From assembly GCA_943353165.1 (NCBI GenBank), contig CALRAM010000001.1, positions 45,483 to 109,482 of the forward strand: 64,000 bases of DNA, in the 5' to 3' direction. The notes under the pieces are model-generated. The model saw only the letters and a program-made list of their open reading frames with translations. It was not told the origin of the DNA and ran no database searches. Source of the DNA: an uncultured Candidatus Saccharimonas sp. (GTDB lineage Bacteria; Patescibacteriota; Saccharimonadia; Saccharimonadales; OMJO01). This document shows, one piece after another, positions 6,286-30,910 of the stretch. Position numbers and translations under genes: made by a program. How positions within the stretch are numbered: position 1 is the stretch's first letter; each line of letters opens with the position of its first letter.

Positions 6286-7893
6286 ATGTCACAAGATGCA
6301 CGTCAAGATGAAGAAATAGCAACTTTCAGGCGCTCCCGTATACTGGGGCTCCCCTATATAAATACTAGTCAGATAGCTAACAAGACATTGTACAAGGAAG
6401 TCCTAAGCTTAAAAGAGCTCTATGACTTCAAGGTTATACCAATTGTTTACGACCAACACCATATCAGCTTTGGGATTGTAAACACAACTTCACAACAATC
6501 TATAAATAGTTTTCGACAAAGGTTTGAAGACCAACAAATTATATTTAGTTTGATATCAGATACTGGATACCGCGAATACATGAAACTTTATGATCCTCCT
6601 AAGGCTGTTGTATACGAAGATATTTCGCTAAATAGAGCAGGCAACCAAGATCTTCAAAAATCGGTTTCAGCCACCCTAGAACAAGTTAGGGCAGATGACG
6701 TTTTGGCCTATTTGGTACAGCAAGCTCACCAACTTAACTCTTCAGATATTCATCTAGAAAACCAAAAAGAATTTATCCGTATTCGGTTTCGAATTGACGG
6801 AGTTCTTCATCCAATAGCTCAGCTAAGCCGTGATAAATATAGGGTTTTGATTGCTGCAATTGCCAGCGCAGGTAATGTGTCTACATCTTCTGATGATGCG
6901 CAACAAGGGCACATAGCTACTACCGCTAAAATGGCTGACGGCAAAACAGTTGACGTAAATGTAAGGCTAGAGACGGTTCCAACCATCAACGGCATGGACG
7001 TTGTTATGAGATTGTTTAATATGAATCAATCAATGTACACACTAGACCGACTGGGCTTGTCCGTAACAGAAAGAAAAACGATAGACGAGATAATTTCGCG
7101 TCCATCTGGTTTAGTTTTAGTTGTAGGCCCAACTGGTTCAGGCAAAACAACTACCTTGTACTCAATGTTAAATACACTAAACACTGAAGAGAGAAAAATA
7201 ATAACCATTGAAGACCCTGTAGAATATCAATTTGCTGGCATTACTCAGATTTCTGTTACTACTCAGACAAACACCCAAAATAATTTTGCCGATAAGCTTC
7301 GAGCAGTATTAAGGCTAGACCCCGACATTGTCATGATAGGAGAGATTCGTGATAATGATACTGCTAAAACAGCATTACAAGCATCATTGACTGGTCATTT
7401 GGTACTATCAACTTTTCACGCTTCTTCTGCTGCTGCTGCCTTGACTAGAATGATGGATGTAATAGGAGCTAATCCGCTCTTTGTCTCTGCTATACGGCTA
7501 GTAATGGCACAGCGCCTTGTACGTAGGCTCGACGACAAGACAAAACAGCCTTATGATCCCGATGAAGCTACAAAAGCAAAGATAAAAGCTATTATAGATA
7601 CTTTTCCAGAAGGCATAGAAAGACCAGATCTATCGGTACTAAAATTATATAAAGCAGGCAAATCAAACGAAAATCCTTATGGTTTTGCTGGTCAGATAGC
7701 TATAAGAGAACAGTTCCGAATGACAGGCGAGATAAGGCAAATAATGGAACATTCCGACCACGTGCTTTCTTCACAAGATATAGAAGCGGCAGCTGTCAAA
7801 AGTGGAATGATGACGATGATTCAGGACGGGGTTTTAAAGGTGTGTCAAGGTTTGACAACTGTCGAAGAAGTATTCAAAGTCGTTGGCTTGTGA
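6286..7893 (+). CDS. type IV pilus / type II secretion assembly ATPase (PilB/GspE family)
   Basis: Walker A LVLVVGPTGSGKTTTLYS, Asp box IITIEDPVEY, His box DIVMIGEIRD, and a C-terminal region typical of GspE. Confidence 0.85.
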   Translation: MSQDARQDEEIATFRRSRILGLPYINTSQIANKTLYKEVLSLKELYDFKVIPIVYDQHHISFGIVNTTSQQSINSFRQRFEDQQIIFSLISDTGYREYMKLYDPPKAVVYEDISLNRAGNQDLQKSVSATLEQVRADDVLAYLVQQAHQLNSSDIHLENQKEFIRIRFRIDGVLHPIAQLSRDKYRVLIAAIASAGNVSTSSDDAQQGHIATTAKMADGKTVDVNVRLETVPTINGMDVVMRLFNMNQSMYTLDRLGLSVTERKTIDEIISRPSGLVLVVGPTGSGKTTTLYSMLNTLNTEERKIITIEDPVEYQFAGITQISVTTQTNTQNNFADKLRAVLRLDPDIVMIGEIRDNDTAKTALQASLTGHLVLSTFHASSAAAALTRMMDVIGANPLFVSAIRLVMAQRLVRRLDDKTKQPYDPDEATKAKIKAIIDTFPEGIERPDLSVLKLYKAGKSNENPYGFAGQIAIREQFRMTGEIRQIMEHSDHVLSSQDIEAAAVKSGMMTMIQDGVLKVCQGLTTVEEVFKVVGL

Positions 7894-27182: not shown

Positions 27183-27709
27183 GAGTAATTTCAGGATCTT
27201 TGGGTGGCCAAAATTTTGAATCTCCTCATGGCCATAGAACTCATCCCATGAGCGACAAAATACGCGGTGCCATTTTTGGTGTATTAGGAGATATTAGCGG
27301 CTGTAGCGTGTTGGACGCTTTTTCTGGTAGCGGAGCTTTAGCCATAGAAGCCATCAGTAGAGGATCGTCTAGCGCTGTAGCCGTAGAAGTTGATGCTGGC
27401 GCACACGCTATAATAGTCAAAAACATCCAAAAGCTTGGAATAGAAAAAAAAGTTAAAGTTGTTCGGGCATTTGTAAATGCCTGGTCCACTAGGCATCAGG
27501 ACCAGTTATTTGACATTATCTTTGCAGATCCACCATACGACAATATCCCATATCGCGATCTTAAATTTTTAGCCAGACACCTAAAGCCAACCGGCACACT
27601 GGTATTGTCTTGGCCTGGCAAAGCAGATGTATACTATATTCCCGAACTAATTGAAGTTCAGATCAAAAAATACGGCGATGCCCAGCTAATATTTTATAAA
27701 TATGCATAA
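27179..27709 (+). CDS. rsmD: 16S rRNA (guanine966-N2)-methyltransferase RsmD
   Basis: VLDAFSGSGALAIEAISRG and the DPPY motif (FADPPYD). Confidence 0.85.
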   Translation: MRVISGSLGGQNFESPHGHRTHPMSDKIRGAIFGVLGDISGCSVLDAFSGSGALAIEAISRGSSSAVAVEVDAGAHAIIVKNIQKLGIEKKVKVVRAFVNAWSTRHQDQLFDIIFADPPYDNIPYRDLKFLARHLKPTGTLVLSWPGKADVYYIPELIEVQIKKYGDAQLIFYKYA

Positions 27710-27789
27710 TCATATTTTACTAATTACGCAAAATTTAGTACAATAACAGAGTGGTATAAGGAAAAAACATATGGATCTGTCGTATGTTA

Positions 27790-27830
27790 TGCGGACGACC
27801 GTGGCTGAAGGTTCATCCTATACGCCAAGT
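27790..27830 (+). pseudogene. degenerate tRNA-Leu relic (acceptor/D 5' 14 nt fused to a T-arm-like segment)
   Basis: GCGGACGACCGTGG matches the tRNA 5' end. The following CTGAAGGTTCATCC resembles the T-arm GTGAAGGTTCAAGTCC. Confidence 0.3.
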
Positions 27831-27850
27831 ACGATACAATTTATAATTAC

Positions 27851-27890
27851 GCGGACGATCGTGGAATTGGTAGACACGCTAGCCTTAGGA
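27851..27890 (+). pseudogene. tRNA-Leu 5' half (acceptor through anticodon loop) lacking a matching 3' half
   Basis: GCGGACGATCGTGGAATTGGTAGACACGCTAGCCTTAGGAG is 38/40 identical to the 5' 40 nt of the intact tRNA-Leu, then diverges into repeat copy 1. Confidence 0.5.
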
Positions 27891-27998
27891 GTGAAACCCG
27901 CCTGTGGCGGGTTGCAAGGTCGGAAGCCTGGATTGCGCAAGCAACCAAGCTGAGACGGGGTCGCAACCGATTGGACTATGTCCAATAGGATTGTGACA
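27891..27998 (+). repeat. structured GC-rich repeat, copy 1 (core CCCGCCTGTGGCGGGTTGCAAGG plus nested hairpins)
   Basis: Shares the 23-nt core hairpin with copies 2-5. Has a GGTCGCAA...TTGTGACA stem with an extra inserted hairpin ATTGGAC-TAT-GTCCAAT. Confidence 0.6.
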
Positions 27999-28131
27999 GT
28001 GCCGCAAGGCGTGAAGGAGAGACCCGCCTGTGGCGGGTCGCAAGGTAGACAACTCTTGCGAACTGGTTTGCAAAGATGTTGCTACGGGGTCGCTGAAAGT
28101 GACCAAGTCCTTTTCAAAAGCCTCTTGAACC
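27999..28131 (+). repeat. structured repeat, copy 2 (tRNA-Leu variable-arm-like 5' box GTGCCGCAAGGCGTGAAGG plus three hairpins)
   Basis: GCGTGAAGG-AGAGACCCGCCTGTGGCGGGTCGCAAGG; hairpin 2 CAACTCTTGCGAAC-TGG-TTTGCAAAGATGTTG; hairpin 3 GGTCGCT-GAAA-GTGACC. Confidence 0.6.
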
Positions 28132-28151
28132 TTCATAATATTATACAGTGC

Positions 28152-28236
28152 GCGGATGTGGTGGAATTGGTAGACACGCTAGCCTTAGGAGCTAGTGCCG
28201 CAAGGCGTGAAGGTTCAAGTCCTTTCATCCGCACCA
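28152..28236 (+). tRNA. tRNA-Leu(TAG), class II with long variable arm and encoded CCA
   Basis: Acceptor GCGGATG/CATCCGC; anticodon stem CTAGC/GCTAG with loop CTTAGGA; variable arm GCCGCAAGGCG; T-arm GAAGG-TTCAAGT-CCTTT; 3' ACCA. Confidence 0.85.
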
Positions 28237-28245
28237 ATCAAAAAA

Positions 28246-28268
28246 TGCTCTCTTTTGAGAGCTTTTTT
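28246..28268 (+). terminator. intrinsic terminator after tRNA-Leu
   Basis: GCTCTC-TTTT-GAGAGC followed by TTTTTTT. Confidence 0.6.
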
Positions 28269-28286
28269 TGATTTGTTCTGGAAGGT

Positions 28287-28422
28287 CTTGAACCAAACCC
28301 TAAGGCGTGAAGGCGAGAGCCGCCTGTGGCGGGTTGCAGGGAAACCTTTCAGATTATCTACTTGTTGATAGTATGAAAGTTTTGGGGTCGCGGAACGTGA
28401 CCAAGTCCTTTCATCCGCACCA
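28287..28422 (+). repeat. structured repeat, copy 3, ending in an exact tRNA-Leu 3' end (AAGTCCTTTCATCCGCACCA)
   Basis: CTTGAACC...CCTAAGGCGTGAAGG-CGAGAGCCGCCTGTGGCGGGTTGCAGGG; hairpin 2; GGTCGCG-GAA-CGTGACC; then a 20-nt exact match to the tRNA 3' terminus. Confidence 0.65.
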
Positions 28423-28428
28423 AAACAA

Positions 28429-28455
28429 GTGACCCCGAAAGGGGTCTTTTGTTTT
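28429..28455 (+). terminator. intrinsic terminator after repeat copy 3
   Basis: GACCCC-GAAA-GGGGTC followed by TTTTGTTTT. Confidence 0.5.
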
Positions 28456-28467
28456 GGTGGTCGAAAT

Positions 28468-28650
28468 GCCCAGAACCTTCACCCTAAAAAGGCGTGAAGG
28501 GGAGAGCCGCCTGTGGCGGGTTGCAAGGCAACTTTACAGATTTCAAACTTGTTTGAAGTATGTAAATTGAGGGGTCGTGGAACGTGACCGAGCCCCCTGT
28601 CTTTCTGACAAGAAGGCCAGGCAGGACGGACAGGTTTCATTCACACCAAC
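28468..28650 (+). repeat. structured repeat, copy 4 (degenerate 3' end with extra insertion)
   Basis: GCCCAGAACC...AGGCGTGAAGG-GGAGAGCCGCCTGTGGCGGGTTGCAAGG; hairpin 2; GGTCGTG-GAA-CGTGACC; a diverged tRNA-like tail GGTTTCATTCACACCAA. Confidence 0.55.
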
Positions 28651-28750
28651 CATATATTGTATGAACTGACACAAAATAACACCTATAGAGGAACGTCCTC
28701 TTTCTCTTGTTTCTGTTCTACACCCAATAGACTTGTAATTGATTTTTTAC

Positions 28751-29329
28751 TCATACAAATTTGTCCGCTAGTTCTTTTGTCTGATAATTCTTAAAATAAT
28801 TTAAGATATCATTCAAATCACTGCCAATAAACACAAAATCACTAAAAGGCACTTTTGAGAAATCTTTCTGTTGCATTTCATCTAGGAATTTTATGAGCGT
28901 ATCGTAAAAACCATCATAGTTAAAAATAGCAATCGGTTTGTCGTATAGTTTATTTACTTTACCACCAACAATTTCTCCAATTTCTTCAAATGTTCCGTAG
29001 CCGCCGGGCAAAATAATAAATGCGTCTGATTCAAAAACTATACGATGTTTGCGGTCGTCCATAGTTTCTTCTAAGTATGTTTTATCAAGTCCATCAAATG
29101 CTACATAGCCTTTGGTAACTGCCATCAAATCTTTTGCCATCACGCCAGTCAAATCATTGCCGCCAGCGTCTTTATAGGCTTTAGCAAGTTCAGACATCAT
29201 CCCATAGTCTGTTCCACCATAAACAATACCCATTTTTTCATTAGCAAGTCGTTCGGCAACTTCTATAGTCAAATCAATATATTCCTGCCCAACTGACAAA
29301 GAAGATGTAAGAGTTATACCCACTTTCAT
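28751..29329 (-). CDS. LOG-family protein (TIGR00730, cytokinin riboside 5'-monophosphate phosphoribohydrolase-like)
   Basis: PGGYGTFEE signature, GxGxxG-like MGIVYGGTDYGMM, Rossmann-like fold pattern. Start trimmed to MKVGIT. Confidence 0.8.
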   Translation of the reverse strand: MKVGITLTSSLSVGQEYIDLTIEVAERLANEKMGIVYGGTDYGMMSELAKAYKDAGGNDLTGVMAKDLMAVTKGYVAFDGLDKTYLEETMDDRKHRIVFESDAFIILPGGYGTFEEIGEIVGGKVNKLYDKPIAIFNYDGFYDTLIKFLDEMQQKDFSKVPFSDFVFIGSDLNDILNYFKNYQTKELADKFV

Positions 29330-29406
29330 AAATCTAATTATACAACAATTACCCAAAAATCTTTTCAGCCAAAAACTAAAAACCCTACAGAGCAGTTCAG
29401 CGAGTC

Positions 29407-29532
29407 GCCCAGAACCCTAAGGCGTGAAGGGGGGACCCGCCTGTGGCGGGCCGGACGTAAACAAACTCTTGAAAACTGGTTTTCAAAGATGTTTTTCTGG
29501 GTGAGATGAGAAGGGGGCTCATTGTATAGGGA
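29407..29532 (+). repeat. structured repeat, copy 5 (in the divergent LOG/hisS intergenic region)
   Basis: GCCCAGAACCCTAAGGCGTGAAGG-GGGGACCCGCCTGTGGCGGG plus hairpin 2 of the copy-2 subtype (AAACTCTTGAAAAC-TGG-TTTTCAAAGATGTTT). Confidence 0.55.
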
Positions 29533-29602
29533 CACAGACAAGATTATTCTACATCATCGATTACTAAAACCTATTTATGATGTATTATAAATAGGAATAA
29601 CT

Positions 29603-30910
29603 ATGGCACTATCTACACAACCATACAAAGGATCTAGGGATTTTTACCCAGAAGACAAGCGTCTCCAAAAACATATATTTGGAGTCATGCGTTCTATCTC
29701 TGAAAAATACGGCTACCAGGAATATGATTCGCCTATTTTAGAACCTACAGAAATATATTCAAACAAAACAAACGAAGAGATTGTAAACGAACAAACATAC
29801 ACATTCGAGGATCGGGGTAATAGAAAAGTTACTATTCGCCCAGAAATGACTCCATCAGTCAGTCGAATGGTTGCAGCCAAAAGGCAAGAGCTTCCATATC
29901 CGTTGCGTTGGTACTCGTTGCCCGTCAACTGGCGATATGAACGCCCTCAACGTGGCAGACTACGTGAATTTTGGCAACTAAACGTTGATTTGTTTGGTAT
30001 CGCAGGCTTAGAGGCAGAAGCAGAAGTCATCCAAGTCGCAGACGATATCATGAAGGCTTTTGGCGCTAAACCAAACATGTACAAAATAAAGATTAACAGC
30101 CGCAATTTGATGGATTACTTTATCAGCGATAGTTTGGGCATGGATAGCGTACAGTCGTCTGTACTAGTTCCGTTAATTGACCGGATGCATAAAATGGATT
30201 TTGCAGAATTTTCTGGGCAAGTAGAAGCGATATTTACACCTTCACAACGCGAAAATTCCGGACCTGATCAGTTATTTGAATTTTTAAAGATAACTAGTAT
30301 CGACGACCTACCCATTTCAATAAAAAACCATCCCTCTGTGATTACGCTAGTCAATTTGATAAAAAGGCTGACAAACGCGGGAATTACAAATGCTGTGTTC
30401 GAACCAACACTAATGCGAGGTTTTAACTACTACACAGATGTAGTATTCGAGGTTTTTGATACCCATCCAGACAATAATCGTTCTATGTTTGGTGGAGGGC
30501 GCTACGATGGCTTGGTAGGCGCCTACGGAGTAGAATCAGTCCCGACAGTCGGATTTGGCATGGGAGATGTGACAATATACAATTTTTTGGAATCACACGG
30601 CCTTACACCAACAGTCAAAACAGAAACGGATGTATGCGCGATTATTATAGGCGATACGCTAGAGCCCGCCCTAAAAATTATTTCTGAGCTAAGAGAAATG
30701 GGACTAAATGTTGCAGTGGCCAGTACCGAACAAAAGATAGACAAACAGATCAAAATAGCTGTCAAAAACGGCATAAAATTTGCAGTATTTTTAGGAGAAA
30801 AAGAGATAAAAAATCAACAAGTACTACTCAAAAATTTAGAAAATAGTACAGAAGAAATCGTCAGTTCACAGAGAGCAGTCAGCATCATCAAAGACTTTCG
30901 TATAAAATGA
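29603..30910 (+). CDS. hisS: histidyl-tRNA synthetase
   Basis: Class II aaRS motifs: RPEMTPSVSRMV, WRYERPQRGRLREFWQ (motif 2), GGGRYDGL (motif 3), and an anticodon-binding C-terminus. Confidence 0.9.
   Translation: MALSTQPYKGSRDFYPEDKRLQKHIFGVMRSISEKYGYQEYDSPILEPTEIYSNKTNEEIVNEQTYTFEDRGNRKVTIRPEMTPSVSRMVAAKRQELPYPLRWYSLPVNWRYERPQRGRLREFWQLNVDLFGIAGLEAEAEVIQVADDIMKAFGAKPNMYKIKINSRNLMDYFISDSLGMDSVQSSVLVPLIDRMHKMDFAEFSGQVEAIFTPSQRENSGPDQLFEFLKITSIDDLPISIKNHPSVITLVNLIKRLTNAGITNAVFEPTLMRGFNYYTDVVFEVFDTHPDNNRSMFGGGRYDGLVGAYGVESVPTVGFGMGDVTIYNFLESHGLTPTVKTETDVCAIIIGDTLEPALKIISELREMGLNVAVASTEQKIDKQIKIAVKNGIKFAVFLGEKEIKNQQVLLKNLENSTEEIVSSQRAVSIIKDFRIK

What the first reader, a model, noticed from the sequence alone, without database searches (positions are those of the whole stretch)
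27891..28620. Repeat units conserve a three-hairpin fold with compensatory substitutions, implying selection on RNA structure
Hairpin 1 (CCGCC-TGT-GGCGG) is invariant in sequence. Hairpin 2 differs strongly in sequence between copies, but every version is self-complementary. There are two subtypes. Copies 2 and 5 have CAACTCTTG(C/A)GAAC-TGG-TTT(G/T)CAAAGATGTT. Copies 3 and 4 have CTTTCAGATTATCTAC-TTGT-TGATAGTATGAAAG and CTTTACAGATTTCAAA-CTTG-TTTGAAGTATGTAAA. Hairpin 3 is GGTCGCG-GAA-CGTGACC in copy 3 and GGTCGCT-GAAA-AGTGACC in copy 2. The closing pair changes G:C to U:A in a compensatory way, with a conserved G.U wobble at the same stem position in all copies. Copy 1 carries an additional perfect hairpin (ATTGGAC-TAT-GTCCAAT) inserted into the loop of hairpin 3. 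Keeping the pairing while the sequence changes is the classic signature of a functional RNA rather than a neutral DNA repeat.
Basis: seen in the sequence. Interest (0 to 1): 0.75.

Follow-up and report, generated by a model that had tools for sequence, protein, structure and literature searches.

The report
Structured mobile element inside tRNA fragments
The repeats are copies of an apparently undescribed ~90-base folded element of Saccharibacteria that sits in the loops of broken spare copies of a tRNA gene beside the working gene; compensating mutations preserve its shape across its relatives, and it behaves like a tiny mobile element.

Summary
The five units are real, and the proposed fold holds up far better across relatives than it does inside the window.

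- **Scale and covariation.** In an unbiased alignment of 89 units, 29 of 34 predicted pairs show double compensatory changes. 95.7% of cells are paired, against 71% in shuffles. One G·U pair in hairpin 3 is invariant (89/89).
- **Hairpin 1.** It is constant only in this genome. Elsewhere its stem varies freely but stays complementary.
- **Known families.** No Rfam family matches, and no paper I could search describes the element.
Every unit is embedded in a fragment of tRNA-Leu, next to the only intact tRNA gene of the window. In relatives the same holds for at least 13 tRNA identities.
- **Layouts.** There are two. In one, a promoter-side pseudo-tRNA carrying unit(s) lies upstream of the intact gene. 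In the other, the order is intact gene, terminator, antisense T-arm, unit, duplicated tRNA 3' end.
- **Mobility.** Units nest inside each other. Near-identical units occur in unrelated host sites. Modules differ between two strains that share an identical RsmD protein.

Best reading: a non-autonomous mobile element whose single-stranded fold (most likely RNA) is needed for its spread. The mechanism is inferred, not shown.

The parts
27791..27826 (+). Oldest remnant of a pseudo-tRNA-Leu. It holds the 5' start gcggacgaccgtgg fused to a T-arm-like ctgaaggttcatcc...acgcc.
   Evidence: Read. It is homologous to L220 4315-4335, where the same piece follows a unit-bearing pseudo-tRNA-Leu.
27827..27850 (+). 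Promoter-like AT-rich spacer (tacaat..tataat) that once drove the tRNA and now drives pseudo-tRNA 1.
   Evidence: The same spacer sits directly upstream of the intact tRNA-Leu in strain L220.
27851..27891 (+). Pseudo-tRNA-Leu 5' half, from acceptor 5' strand through D arm and anticodon stem to the anticodon loop.
   Evidence: A 31-nt stretch is 100% identical to the intact tRNA (repeat D6). Sequence read.
27892..27998 (+). Unit 1, of structural subtype 2 (different hairpin 2; hairpin 3 carries an extra AT-rich helix). It is inserted at the 3' side of the anticodon loop and replaces two host nucleotides.
   Evidence: CM hit of 38.7 bits. Fold z -4.6. Subtype relatives.
27999..28017 (+). Pseudo-tRNA-Leu variable arm plus the 5' strand of the T stem.
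   Evidence: Repeat D4: 20 nt, 100% identical to the intact tRNA.
28018..28104 (+). Unit 2, in the T loop of pseudo-tRNA 1. It replaces T54-T55.
   Evidence: CM hit of 100.4 bits. Fold z -3.8.
28105..28151 (+). Truncated T-loop 3' part and T stem (aagtccttttc), then a snap-back antisense T-arm copy (aaaagcctcttgaaccttca), then a promoter-like TTTTCA-17-CATAAT for the intact tRNA.
   Evidence: Inverted repeat I4. Promoter scan.
28152..28236 (+). Intact tRNA-Leu(TAG). It is the only tRNA gene in the 64-kb window.
   Evidence: ARAGORN. Rfam tRNA at 60.5 bits.
28233..28276 (+). Terminator hairpin 1. Its 5' arm starts inside the tRNA 3' end.
   Evidence: Inverted repeat I1. Terminator scan.
28277..28313 (+). 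Antisense T-arm copy (ggaaggtcttgaacc), a loop (aaaccctaagg) and a sense copy of tRNA positions about 44-53 (ggcgtgaagg).
   Evidence: antisense score 12, against a maximum of 9 in 200 shuffles.
28314..28402 (+). Unit 3, in the T loop of a 3' partial tRNA-Leu copy.
   Evidence: CM hit of 72.6 bits.
28403..28422 (+). Duplicated tRNA-Leu 3' end (T-loop 3' part, T stem, acceptor 3' strand, CCA). It is identical to the intact gene.
   Evidence: Repeat D7: 22 nt, 100% identical. 21/21 identity.
28418..28459 (+). Terminator hairpin 2.
   Evidence: Inverted repeat I2. Terminator scan.
28460..28500 (+). Antisense tRNA 3'-half copy that continues the terminator's 3' arm, then a loop, then sense ggcgtgaagg.
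   Evidence: Inverted repeat I3. Identical in strain L220.
28501..28589 (+). Unit 4.
   Evidence: CM hit of 72.7 bits. The orthologous module in L220 carries a different hairpin 2.
28590..28649 (+). Decayed tRNA 3' end. It carries an extra hairpin (cctgtc...gacagg) and ends tttcattcacaccaa.
   Evidence: Read. Compared with L220.
29410..29510 (+). Unit 5 with its left flank (cagaaccctaaggcgtgaagg). It is a degenerate copy upstream of hisS.
   Evidence: CM hit of 43.4 bits. Does not fold better than shuffles. Conserved in L220.

Best explanation
The units belong to a large family of ~85-115-nt elements of Candidatus Saccharibacteria that I could not find described anywhere.

**Fold.** On the + strand each unit forms three hairpins that radiate from a junction closed by host sequence.
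- The 5' junction is G-UGA-R-A.
- Hairpin 1 has an invariant (N)GU loop.
- A GCAAGG linker follows.
- Hairpin 2 is long and modular.
- Hairpin 3 carries an invariant G.U.

**Behaviour.** The ~90-nt unit itself is the mobile segment. It inserts after a G (usually GG) in exposed loops of tRNA-shaped sequence. The main site is between T54 and T55 of the T loop. It also enters D, anticodon and variable loops, and the 5' strand of hairpin 3 of other units. At each site about two host nucleotides are replaced by T[GA...GTGA]Y.

**Why copies survive.** An insertion in the only gene for a tRNA would be lethal. Surviving copies therefore sit in redundant partial copies of the tRNA beside an intact gene. 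Two module types supply the replacement part:
- Layout A: unit, then promoter, then tRNA 5' part.
- Layout B: tRNA 3' end, then terminator, then antisense arm, then unit.

These are the two products expected if a small DNA segment or circle carrying a unit-interrupted tRNA recombines with the chromosomal gene, either 5' or 3' of the unit.

**Shown versus inferred.** Shown: family, fold, covariation, strand, tRNA context, nesting, strain polymorphism and movement of the unit between unrelated hosts. Inferred: that the fold acts as RNA, that it is required for insertion (as a recognition scaffold or a catalyst), and the recombination route that builds the modules.
For: **Family size.** A genome scan found 15 units in 14 Saccharibacteria/Patescibacteria loci; ARAGORN found an intact tRNA of the matching identity next to the unit in 11 of them.

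**Fold.**
- 29 of 34 pairs have double changes.
- 95.7% of cells are paired against 71.4% in shuffles. Covariation is 0.62 against 0.18 (0/500) and below 0.1 for slid controls. G.U is 89/89 at columns 86-96.
- Mutual information peaks on the predicted pairs.
- For window units 2-4, the + strand is 6-12 kcal/mol more stable than the - strand.

**tRNA context.**
- The five window units are all in tRNA-Leu fragments around the single tRNA gene.
- 54 of the 89 units have an intact same-strand tRNA at a near-fixed distance: its end within 130 nt upstream of the unit (it typically starts 145-170 nt upstream), or its start within 90 nt (typically 40-65 nt) downstream of the unit end. Thirteen identities are covered.
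- 74 units are on the same strand as the tRNA and 1 is opposite.

**Mobility.**
- Units 89-94% identical sit in unrelated hosts: Ser T loop versus nested in another unit, Val T loop versus Leu D loop, Leu anticodon loop versus the antisense strand of a tRNA-Phe fragment. Similarity begins at G|TGAGA and ends at GTGAC|.
- Nested units are seen.
- Strain L220 has an identical RsmD protein. It lacks the 186-nt terminator-1/unit-3 module exactly between the 22-nt direct repeats. It lacks the unit-2 layer. It has a different hairpin 2 in the orthologous unit-4 module.
- Decayed copies exist (unit 5).

**Modules supply working parts.** A promoter-like site lies before the intact tRNA, and each module has its own terminator.

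**No known family.**
Against: - No enzyme, reverse transcriptase, recombinase or ORF travels with the units, and nothing shows how they move.
- No transcript data exist. Units 3-5 lie behind terminators.
- Covariation and the G.U bias would also fit a fold used as single-stranded DNA.
- The duplicated tRNA 3' end is 21/21 identical to the intact gene in 20 of 36 layout-B modules, while the antisense arm has decayed. This needs either very recent integration, ongoing gene conversion, or selection on a tRNA-like 3' end. The last of these would favour a host function.
- Hairpin-3 types correlate with tRNA identity across genomes. This suggests long residence at some loci rather than constant hopping.
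- The antisense T-arm and its recurrent CYAAAG-like loop (sequences read) are only loosely explained. They may be a replication template-switch scar at the terminator palindrome, as in ODIRA (PMC4689423).
- The metagenome pattern required GGTGA, so the preference for a left-hand GG is partly imposed. Only the genome scan and the window (16 of 18 with GG) are unbiased on this point.
Confidence: 0.5

Rival explanations
1. Host-beneficial cis-acting RNA. Each module would be a companion gene of its tRNA: a tRNA-3'-end (or 5'-part) mimic carrying a structured sensor or scaffold domain. It would control folding, processing or decay of the neighbouring tRNA transcript, for example through competition between the antisense T-arm, the decoy T-arm and the real T-arm.
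For: - Structure is maintained over long divergence.
- The module 3' end stays 21/21 identical to the tRNA in most layout-B modules while other parts drift.
- Geometry relative to the tRNA is fixed.
- Hairpin-3 types track tRNA identity.
- 69 of 112 tRNAs in unit-bearing loci have a unit (a biased sample).
- The antisense arm can pair with either the real or the decoy T-arm.
Against: - Modules are present or absent between strains that share an identical RsmD protein.
- Units nest inside and thereby break hairpin 3 of other units.
- Near-identical units occur in unrelated hosts, including an antisense tRNA fragment.
- Degenerate copies exist.
- Antisense arms decay.
- Layout-B modules lie behind good terminators.
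Confidence: 0.15
2. A DNA-level recombination site. The fold would be recognised as single-stranded DNA, like integron attC sites or IS200/IS605 ends, by a recombinase encoded elsewhere. The modules would be cassettes integrated at the T-loop region of tRNA genes.
For: - Arrays of short modules are bounded by direct repeats of the tRNA end.
- Structure is conserved while stem sequence varies, with conserved bases at the foot and in the loops, as in attC.
- The antisense T-arm (..YGAAC) and the sense T loop (GTTC..) form an imperfect inverted pair around the unit.
- One unit lies on the strand opposite to the tRNA fragment.
- The folding strand is the G-rich strand, which would be the lagging-strand template if positive GC skew marks the leading strand.
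Against: - No integrase or HUH gene lies next to any module.
- A three-hairpin junction with an invariant G.U and a 2-3-fold excess of G.U over A.C is more typical of RNA.
- Strand agreement with tRNA genes is 74:1.
- Insertion replaces about 2 nt, rather than being exact or duplicating the target.
Confidence: 0.15
3. True tRNA introns of a new small class, either self-splicing or spliced by cleavage plus ligase. The copies beside intact genes would be fossils left after the host regained an uninterrupted gene.
For: - Units sit in tRNA loops, co-oriented with the tRNA, and nest like twintrons.
- For hairpin-3 types ending ...GGTAGG|TC, removing GA...GG leaves a canonical TTCRA T loop.
- One full-length tRNA-Ser(CGA) carries a unit with no intact copy in view (L120).
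- Patescibacteria are known to be rich in tRNA introns (PMC13011429).
Against: - Only 2 of 89 hosts become a complete tRNA when the unit is removed, and only if I supply missing bases.
- Most hosts lack an acceptor strand.
- At non-T-loop sites two host bases are replaced, so excision cannot restore the tRNA.
- An intact paralogue is almost always adjacent.
- There is no group I or II model match.
Confidence: 0.1
4. A neutral DNA repeat whose apparent compensatory changes come only from gene conversion between two or three subfamilies.
For: Inside the window, hairpin-2 differences are wholesale swaps between types, not independent pair changes. Hairpin 2 is also swapped between strains at one locus.
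Against: Across 89 units there are up to five standard pair types per position. 663 cells show double changes against 179 in shuffles, and slid controls collapse. Hairpin-1 arms occur in more than 30 different complementary versions.
Confidence: 0.01

Closest known systems
[quoted passage not shown]
   Same: Structured RNA elements that interrupt tRNA genes in the same phylum, are sporadically distributed, and mostly lack their own protein genes.
   Different: - They are 85-115 nt with three hairpins, not 200 nt or more with a P3-P9 core.
- There is no match to the group I model even at E<=10.
- They sit mainly at T54/T55 rather than in the anticodon loop.
- Hosts are truncated pseudo-tRNAs beside an intact gene.
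- Excision would not restore most hosts.
Archaeal non-canonical (BHB) tRNA introns, and split or permuted tRNA genes
   Same: Short intervening sequences at D-, anticodon-, variable- and T-loop positions, several per tRNA, thought to be mobile. tRNA fragments are encoded separately.
   Different: - This is a bacterial lineage.
- Here the fragments are redundant, because an intact gene lies next door.
- The conserved core is the insert's own junction, not an exon-intron bulge-helix-bulge.
- No splicing endonuclease is implied. BHB geometry was not tested.
Integrative elements that target tRNA genes, and their tandem accretion (direct repeats of the tRNA 3' end as att sites)
   Same: Each layout-B module is bounded by a direct repeat of the tRNA 3' end. 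The element side restores the gene. Modules stack in tandem and differ between strains.
   Different: - Modules are about 190 nt with no integrase or any ORF.
- A mirror-image layout that carries the promoter and the 5' part also exists.
- The conserved part is a folded 90-nt unit placed exactly in the T loop of the displaced copy.
Small structured bacterial repeats (REP/BIME, BOX, RUP, Correia elements, MITEs); comparison from my own knowledge
   Same: Short, non-coding, multicopy and strain-variable, with predicted stable folds when transcribed.
   Different: - There are no terminal inverted repeats and no target-site duplication.
- The target is extremely specific (tRNA loops and the element's own hairpin 3).
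- The fold is a multi-helix junction with invariant junction bases and far stronger covariation than a simple palindrome.
Inverted triplications from replication template switching at short palindromes (ODIRA, PMC4689423; tandem inversion duplications in Salmonella, from my own knowledge)
   Same: The order is direct copy, inverted copy, direct copy of the tRNA 3' half, with junctions at two short hairpins. The first of these is the terminator.
   Different: This would explain only the antisense arm. It does not explain the unit, the different terminators of successive modules, or layout A.

Membership tests
Group I intron | Match to the conserved P1-P9 core (Rfam Intron_gpI covariance model) | tested here: not met
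   No hit at E<=10 over window 27600-28800, nor at E<=0.05 in five other loci.
Group I intron | Precise excision restores a functional host gene | tested here: not met
   2 of 89 hosts become a complete tRNA after removal, and only with bases that I added. Most hosts lack an acceptor strand.
Group II intron | Six-domain ribozyme of several hundred nt, usually with a reverse-transcriptase ORF | tested here: not met
   Units are 85-115 nt with three hairpins and no ORF. No Rfam group II hit.
Archaeal-type BHB tRNA intron | Bulge-helix-bulge at both exon-intron junctions, cut by a splicing endonuclease | not tested
   I did not model BHB geometry. The host is bacterial.
Archaeal-type BHB tRNA intron | The interrupted gene is the functional copy | tested here: not met
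   An intact paralogue is adjacent, and the host fragments are truncated.
MITE / IS-derived repeat | Terminal inverted repeats and a target-site duplication | tested here: not met
   The ends are TGAGA... and ...GTGAC, which are not inverted repeats. About 2 host nt are replaced rather than duplicated.
tRNA-targeting integrative element | Direct repeats of the tRNA end flank the inserted DNA, and the gene is restored | tested here: met
   22-nt repeat D7. 21/21 identity in 20 of 36 modules. The module is absent exactly between the repeats in L220.
tRNA-targeting integrative element | Encodes its own integrase | tested here: not met
   The DNA between the repeats is about 165-190 nt: terminator, antisense arm and unit. 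There is no ORF.
Known self-cleaving ribozymes and all other Rfam 15 families | Match to a family covariance model | tested here: not met
   Only tRNA, RNase P RNA and tmRNA reach threshold in the window and 25 loci. Weak sub-threshold hits (CRISPR-DR, miRNA) have E>0.07.
tRNA | Complete cloverleaf | tested here: not met
   Only 28152-28236 is a tRNA. The unit-bearing pieces are fragments.
Integron attC-type folded recombination site | R''/R' boxes (RYYYAAC / GTTRRRY), extrahelical bases, and an IntI integrase in the genome | not testable with these tools
   Only a loose resemblance: antisense ..YGAAC and the T-loop GTTC.. flank the unit. The genome-wide integrase content could not be examined.

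The most novel reading that the evidence does not exclude
The unit is a new class of very small catalytic RNA. It would be a self-inserting (reverse-splicing-like) or self-cleaving/ligating mini-element. It would recognise a G in exposed loops of folded tRNA-shaped RNA, insert between T54 and U55, and be fixed in DNA through copying and recombination with the tRNA gene. That would make it the smallest known mobile ribozyme, and one that targets tRNAs.
Probability: 0.15. Interest if true: 0.95.

Novelty: categorically new. Interest (0 to 1): 0.82.

Why it matters
If confirmed, this adds an abundant, strongly covarying structured element to a phylum (Saccharibacteria/CPR) whose non-coding RNA is almost unexplored.

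- **An unprecedented niche.** The element lives in the T loop of redundant tRNA fragments that it, or its carrier module, creates beside the working gene.
- **tRNA gene evolution.** It gives a concrete explanation for how tRNA loci in ~1-Mb genomes grow layers of pseudo-tRNA pieces, spare promoters and spare terminators.
- **Annotation.** It explains spurious 'hypothetical protein' calls over these regions.
- **Experiments.** It offers a 90-nt candidate for a new ribozyme or a new protein-RNA recognition module with site-specific insertion behaviour. This can be tested directly in vitro.
- **Practice.** tRNA and gene annotation of CPR genomes should mask these units.

Tried and rejected
- **Tandem repeat.** TRF finds no array at the units. 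They are dispersed at spacings of 126, 296, 187 and 930 nt.
- **Known RNA families.** Rfam at gathering threshold and at E<=10 gave nothing but tRNA.
- **Hammerhead or K-turn by eye.** Rejected. The candidate G.A positions are Watson-Crick pairs that covary, and no model hit exists.
- **Pseudoknot search by mutual information.** No non-nested signal.
- **Phage origin.** The viral scan gave one chance hit with a non-complementary 'stem'.
- **Coding potential.** Small ORFs overlap the units on both strands, but the covariation follows base pairs, not codons.
- **Intron test.** I removed units and tried 21 linkers in ARAGORN. Only 2 of 89 gave a tRNA.
- **Antisense T-arm as a selected guide.** It is enriched but degenerate, and it tracks the local tRNA, so there is no independent covariation test.
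- **Simple inverted-triplication origin of module 3 from an L220-like ancestor.** Rejected, because the terminator next to the tRNA differs.
- **Exact lookup of the LOG protein.** It was not on record.
- **Literature.** Nine searches found only group I introns in Patescibacteria tRNAs.
Full report
**1. The observation**

The region holds four units of 85-107 nt inside the stated coordinates. They lie at 27892-27998, 28018-28104, 28314-28402 and 28501-28589. A fifth lies outside them at about 29431-29510.

The hairpin-1 core CCGCCTGTGGCGGGT occurs five times, where 0.05 is expected. TRF finds no tandem array, so the copies are dispersed. There is one slip: hairpin 3 of copy 2 has a GAA loop, not GAAA.

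On their own, units 1 and 2 fold better than all 200 shuffles. Units 3 and 4 do so only marginally. Unit 5 does not. For units 2-4, the + strand folds 6-12 kcal/mol better than the - strand.

Within the window the copies fall into a few hairpin-2 types. The window alone therefore cannot separate covariation from subfamily structure.

**2.

The window has a single tRNA gene, tRNA-Leu(TAG), at 28152-28236. Every unit interrupts a fragment of that tRNA. Reading 5' to 3':

- A remnant of an old pseudo-tRNA (27791-27826).
- A promoter-like spacer.
- A tRNA-Leu 5' half (27851-27891), with a 31-nt stretch identical to the gene.
- Unit 1.
- The variable arm and the 5' strand of the T stem (20 nt identical).
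- Unit 2, in the T loop.
- A truncated T-stem 3' strand that snaps back into an antisense T-arm copy.
- A promoter-like TTTTCA-17-CATAAT.
- The intact gene.
- Terminator 1.
- An antisense T-arm, a loop and a sense copy of positions about 44-53.
- Unit 3.
- A 22-nt exact copy of the tRNA 3' end.
- Terminator 2.
- The same arrangement again with unit 4.

Unit 5 has the same left flank and sits upstream of hisS.

The organism is a Candidatus Saccharibacteria bacterium. The flanking genes are RecG, RsmD, a LOG-family protein, HisRS and trigger factor.

**3. The family**

I scanned one genome per species with the hairpin-1 core plus three bases on either side. This returned, among chance hits in GC-rich genomes, 15 units in 14 loci from Saccharibacteria or Patescibacteria MAGs. 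In 11 of them ARAGORN found an intact tRNA of the matching identity next to the unit, and two more are cut by a contig end.

A metagenome scan left the hairpin-1 stem free. The pattern was GGTGARA-N6-TGT-N6-TYGCAAGG. It stopped at its 120-locus limit. In the hits, the two free 6-mers are complementary in more than 30 different versions. AATGCC/GGCATT occurs 16 times, ACTGCC/GGCAGT 10 times, ATTGCC/GGCAAT 9 times, and so on. The few non-complementary hits are chance matches.

Hairpin 1 is therefore not invariant. It is the most freely covarying stem. A viral scan gave only a chance hit.

**4. Structure**

I aligned 89 distinct units with MAFFT, using no structural information. RNAalifold predicts 34 pairs in three helices, and 29 of them have double compensatory changes.

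With explicit controls:

| Measure | Observed | 500 shuffles | Slid by ±1-3 columns |
|---|---|---|---|
| Cells forming a standard pair | 95.7% | 71.4% | 27-44% |
| Cells with a change on both sides | 663 | 179 | 71-104 |
| Covariation score | 0.62 | 0.18 (0/500 reach it) | 0.05-0.095 |

The highest mutual-information column pairs are almost all predicted pairs. No pseudoknot signal appears.

Invariant bases cluster at the junction: G-(U)GA-R-A before hairpin 1, the (N)GU loop, and GCA(A)G(G) after hairpin 1. The pair at columns 86-96 in hairpin 3 is G.U in 89 of 89 units. Outside that pair, G.U/U.G cells outnumber A.C/C.A by about 2-3 to 1. The + strand is therefore the folding strand.

Unit 1 belongs to a second structural subtype. 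That subtype has a different hairpin 2. Its hairpin 3 carries an extra AT-rich helix with compensatory changes of its own, for example AATTTGTC/GACAAAT, AAAATTCG/CGAATTTT and ATTGGAC/GTCCAAT. The 'inserted hairpin' is thus a subtype feature.

A covariance model built from the alignment finds only the five units in the window. It finds 118 hits in 100 metagenome loci.

**5. Genomic behaviour**

Fifty-four of the 89 units have an intact tRNA on the same strand in one of two fixed geometries (35 in layout B and 19 in layout A). Most of the others are cut by a contig end or are nested in another unit:

- Layout A: the tRNA starts within 90 nt, typically 40-65 nt, downstream of the unit.
- Layout B: the tRNA ends within 130 nt upstream of the unit, so it typically starts 145-170 nt upstream.

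Thirteen tRNA identities are represented among the 54 modules that could be classified. In unit-bearing loci, 69 of 112 tRNAs have a unit nearby. The strand split is 74 same to 1 opposite. This sample is biased, because the loci were chosen for having units.

Removing the unit gives a complete tRNA in only 2 of 89 cases, and only with bases that I supplied. One of these is a full-length tRNA-Ser(CGA) in L120.

Units also sit in several other places:

- D loops, anticodon loops and variable arms.
- The 5' strand of hairpin 3 of other units, as nesting.
- Once, the antisense strand of a tRNA-Phe fragment.

Where an intact paralogue allows comparison, about two host nucleotides are replaced by T[GA...GTGA]Y. 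In the T loop this amounts to insertion between T54 and T55, often with T55 changed to C. That change turns the outer G.U of hairpin 3 into G-C.

**6. Evidence for mobility**

Units that are 89-94% identical lie in unrelated hosts:

- Ser T loop versus nested in another unit.
- Val T loop versus Leu D loop.
- Leu T loop versus Ser T loop.
- Leu anticodon loop versus antisense tRNA-Phe.

In each pair the similarity starts at G|TGAGA and stops at GTGAC|. The ~90-nt unit is therefore itself the mobile segment.

A strain with a 100% identical RsmD protein (L220) differs at this locus:

- It has a subtype-2 unit in the variable arm of the upstream pseudo-tRNA.
- It lacks the unit-2 layer.
- It lacks the 186-nt terminator-1/unit-3 module exactly between the 22-nt direct repeats.
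- It carries a different hairpin 2 in the orthologous unit-4 module.

Unit 5 and several other copies are decayed.

**7. The modules**

The antisense T-arm continues the 3' arm of the terminator hairpin. The tRNA 3' half, the terminator and the antisense copy thus form one long palindrome, followed by a second small hairpin and the sense copy. This direct-inverted-direct order is what replication template switching at short palindromes produces (ODIRA, PMC4689423).

That does not explain the different terminators of successive modules, and it does not explain layout A.

The antisense arm is enriched but degenerate. Its mean score is 9.6 against 5.5 for shuffles, and 21 of 54 arms beat all 200 shuffles. 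By contrast, the module's C56-A76 stretch is 21/21 identical to the gene in 20 of 36 layout-B modules.

Both layouts match the two products of a single crossover between a small DNA that carries a unit-interrupted tRNA and the chromosomal gene. A crossover 5' of the unit gives layout A. A crossover 3' of the unit gives layout B. This step is inference.

Other ~100-nt inserts, either very divergent or unrelated, occupy the same slot at other tRNAs (L105, L138, L143, L173). The architecture is therefore general in these bacteria.

**8. Comparison with known systems**

- **Rfam.** No family matches in the window or in 25 other loci.
- **Literature.** Searches found only group I introns in Patescibacteria tRNA genes (PMC13011429). 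Those are larger, sit in the anticodon loop and splice precisely. Nothing described this element. Subscription-only papers were not searched.
- **Group I/II introns, MITEs and integrative elements.** Each fails at least one defining feature that I tested. For BHB introns, the interrupted copy is not the functional gene; the BHB motif itself was not modelled. The only feature met is the direct repeat of the tRNA end that is typical of integrative elements.

**9. Verdict**

The most likely identity is a small non-autonomous mobile element specialised on tRNA-shaped loops. Its single-stranded fold, probably RNA, would be required for its propagation. It survives only in redundant tRNA fragments beside an intact gene (confidence about 0.5).

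The rivals are a tRNA-linked regulatory RNA, a folded single-stranded-DNA recombination site, and a true small intron. The movement mechanism and the molecule that folds are not established.

Noticed in passing
window 27771-27953 (+), 27978-28271 (+), 28479-28640 (-); L218 4093-4275, L222 2297-2479, 2504-2797, 3005-3166: Public gene calls place 53-97-aa 'proteins' with no Pfam hit right over the units and tRNA fragments. Given the base-pair covariation, these are almost certainly spurious ORFs.
   Followed up: partly
L004, L009, L022, L024, L037, L041, L053, L066, L082, L084, L089: A different multicopy repeat occurs in Ignavibacteriales, Zixibacteria and Thermodesulfobacteriota MAGs. It contains the identical 20-nt hairpin GACCCGCCTGTGGCGGGTCG, embedded in longer inverted arms (cgtcatcgcga...tcgcaatgacg). 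It shows no tRNA context or unit junction. The shared hairpin is unexplained.
   Followed up: no
L105 ~2110-2290, L138 (tRNA-His downstream), L143 ~6640-6790, L173 (tRNA-Asp downstream): Other ~100-nt inserts occupy exactly the same slot: tRNA, terminator, antisense T-arm, insert, duplicated tRNA 3' end. All begin with a hairpin right after GG. L138 has an AGT loop. L143 and L173 look like very divergent relatives of the unit. This may be a superfamily.
   Followed up: partly
L220 3334-5432 versus window 27709-29603: A strain with an identical RsmD protein has DUF2268 and CBU_0592-like genes between rsmD and hisS, where the window has the LOG-family gene. It also has a different set of units. 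The locus is a hot spot of rearrangement.
   Followed up: partly
L209 4130-4400, L161 (reverse strand) ~170-400, L117 1-120: A unit is inserted in the antisense strand of a partial tRNA-Phe copy. That copy lies beside an intact tRNA-Phe on the opposite strand. It is the only orientation exception seen.
   Followed up: partly
L120 1500-1700 (reverse strand): A full-length tRNA-Ser(CGA) with its own promoter-like upstream region carries a unit in its T loop. No intact copy lies within the 2.8-kb contig. This is the best candidate for an interrupted sole gene.
   Followed up: partly
window 28590-28635: The decayed tRNA 3' end after unit 4 carries an extra 46-nt segment with a cctgtc...gacagg hairpin that is absent from the orthologous L220 module. 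Its origin is unknown.
   Followed up: no
L164 3950-4800 (reverse strand): Three successive promoter-plus-tRNA-Gln 5' starts occur in a row. The first two are interrupted by subtype-2 units in the D loop and truncated with snap-back copies. The third is intact and is followed by a layout-B module with nested units. This is a clear example of layered growth.
   Followed up: partly
antisense/sense hairpin loops of layout-B modules (window 28295-28303, 28483-28490, 29416-29420; many loci): The loop between the antisense arm and the sense copy has a recurrent CYAAAG-like sequence (GCCAAAG, CCCTAAGG, GCTAAAG, CCTAAAG) across modules of different tRNA identity. It is not derived from the tRNA and remains unexplained.
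   Followed up: no
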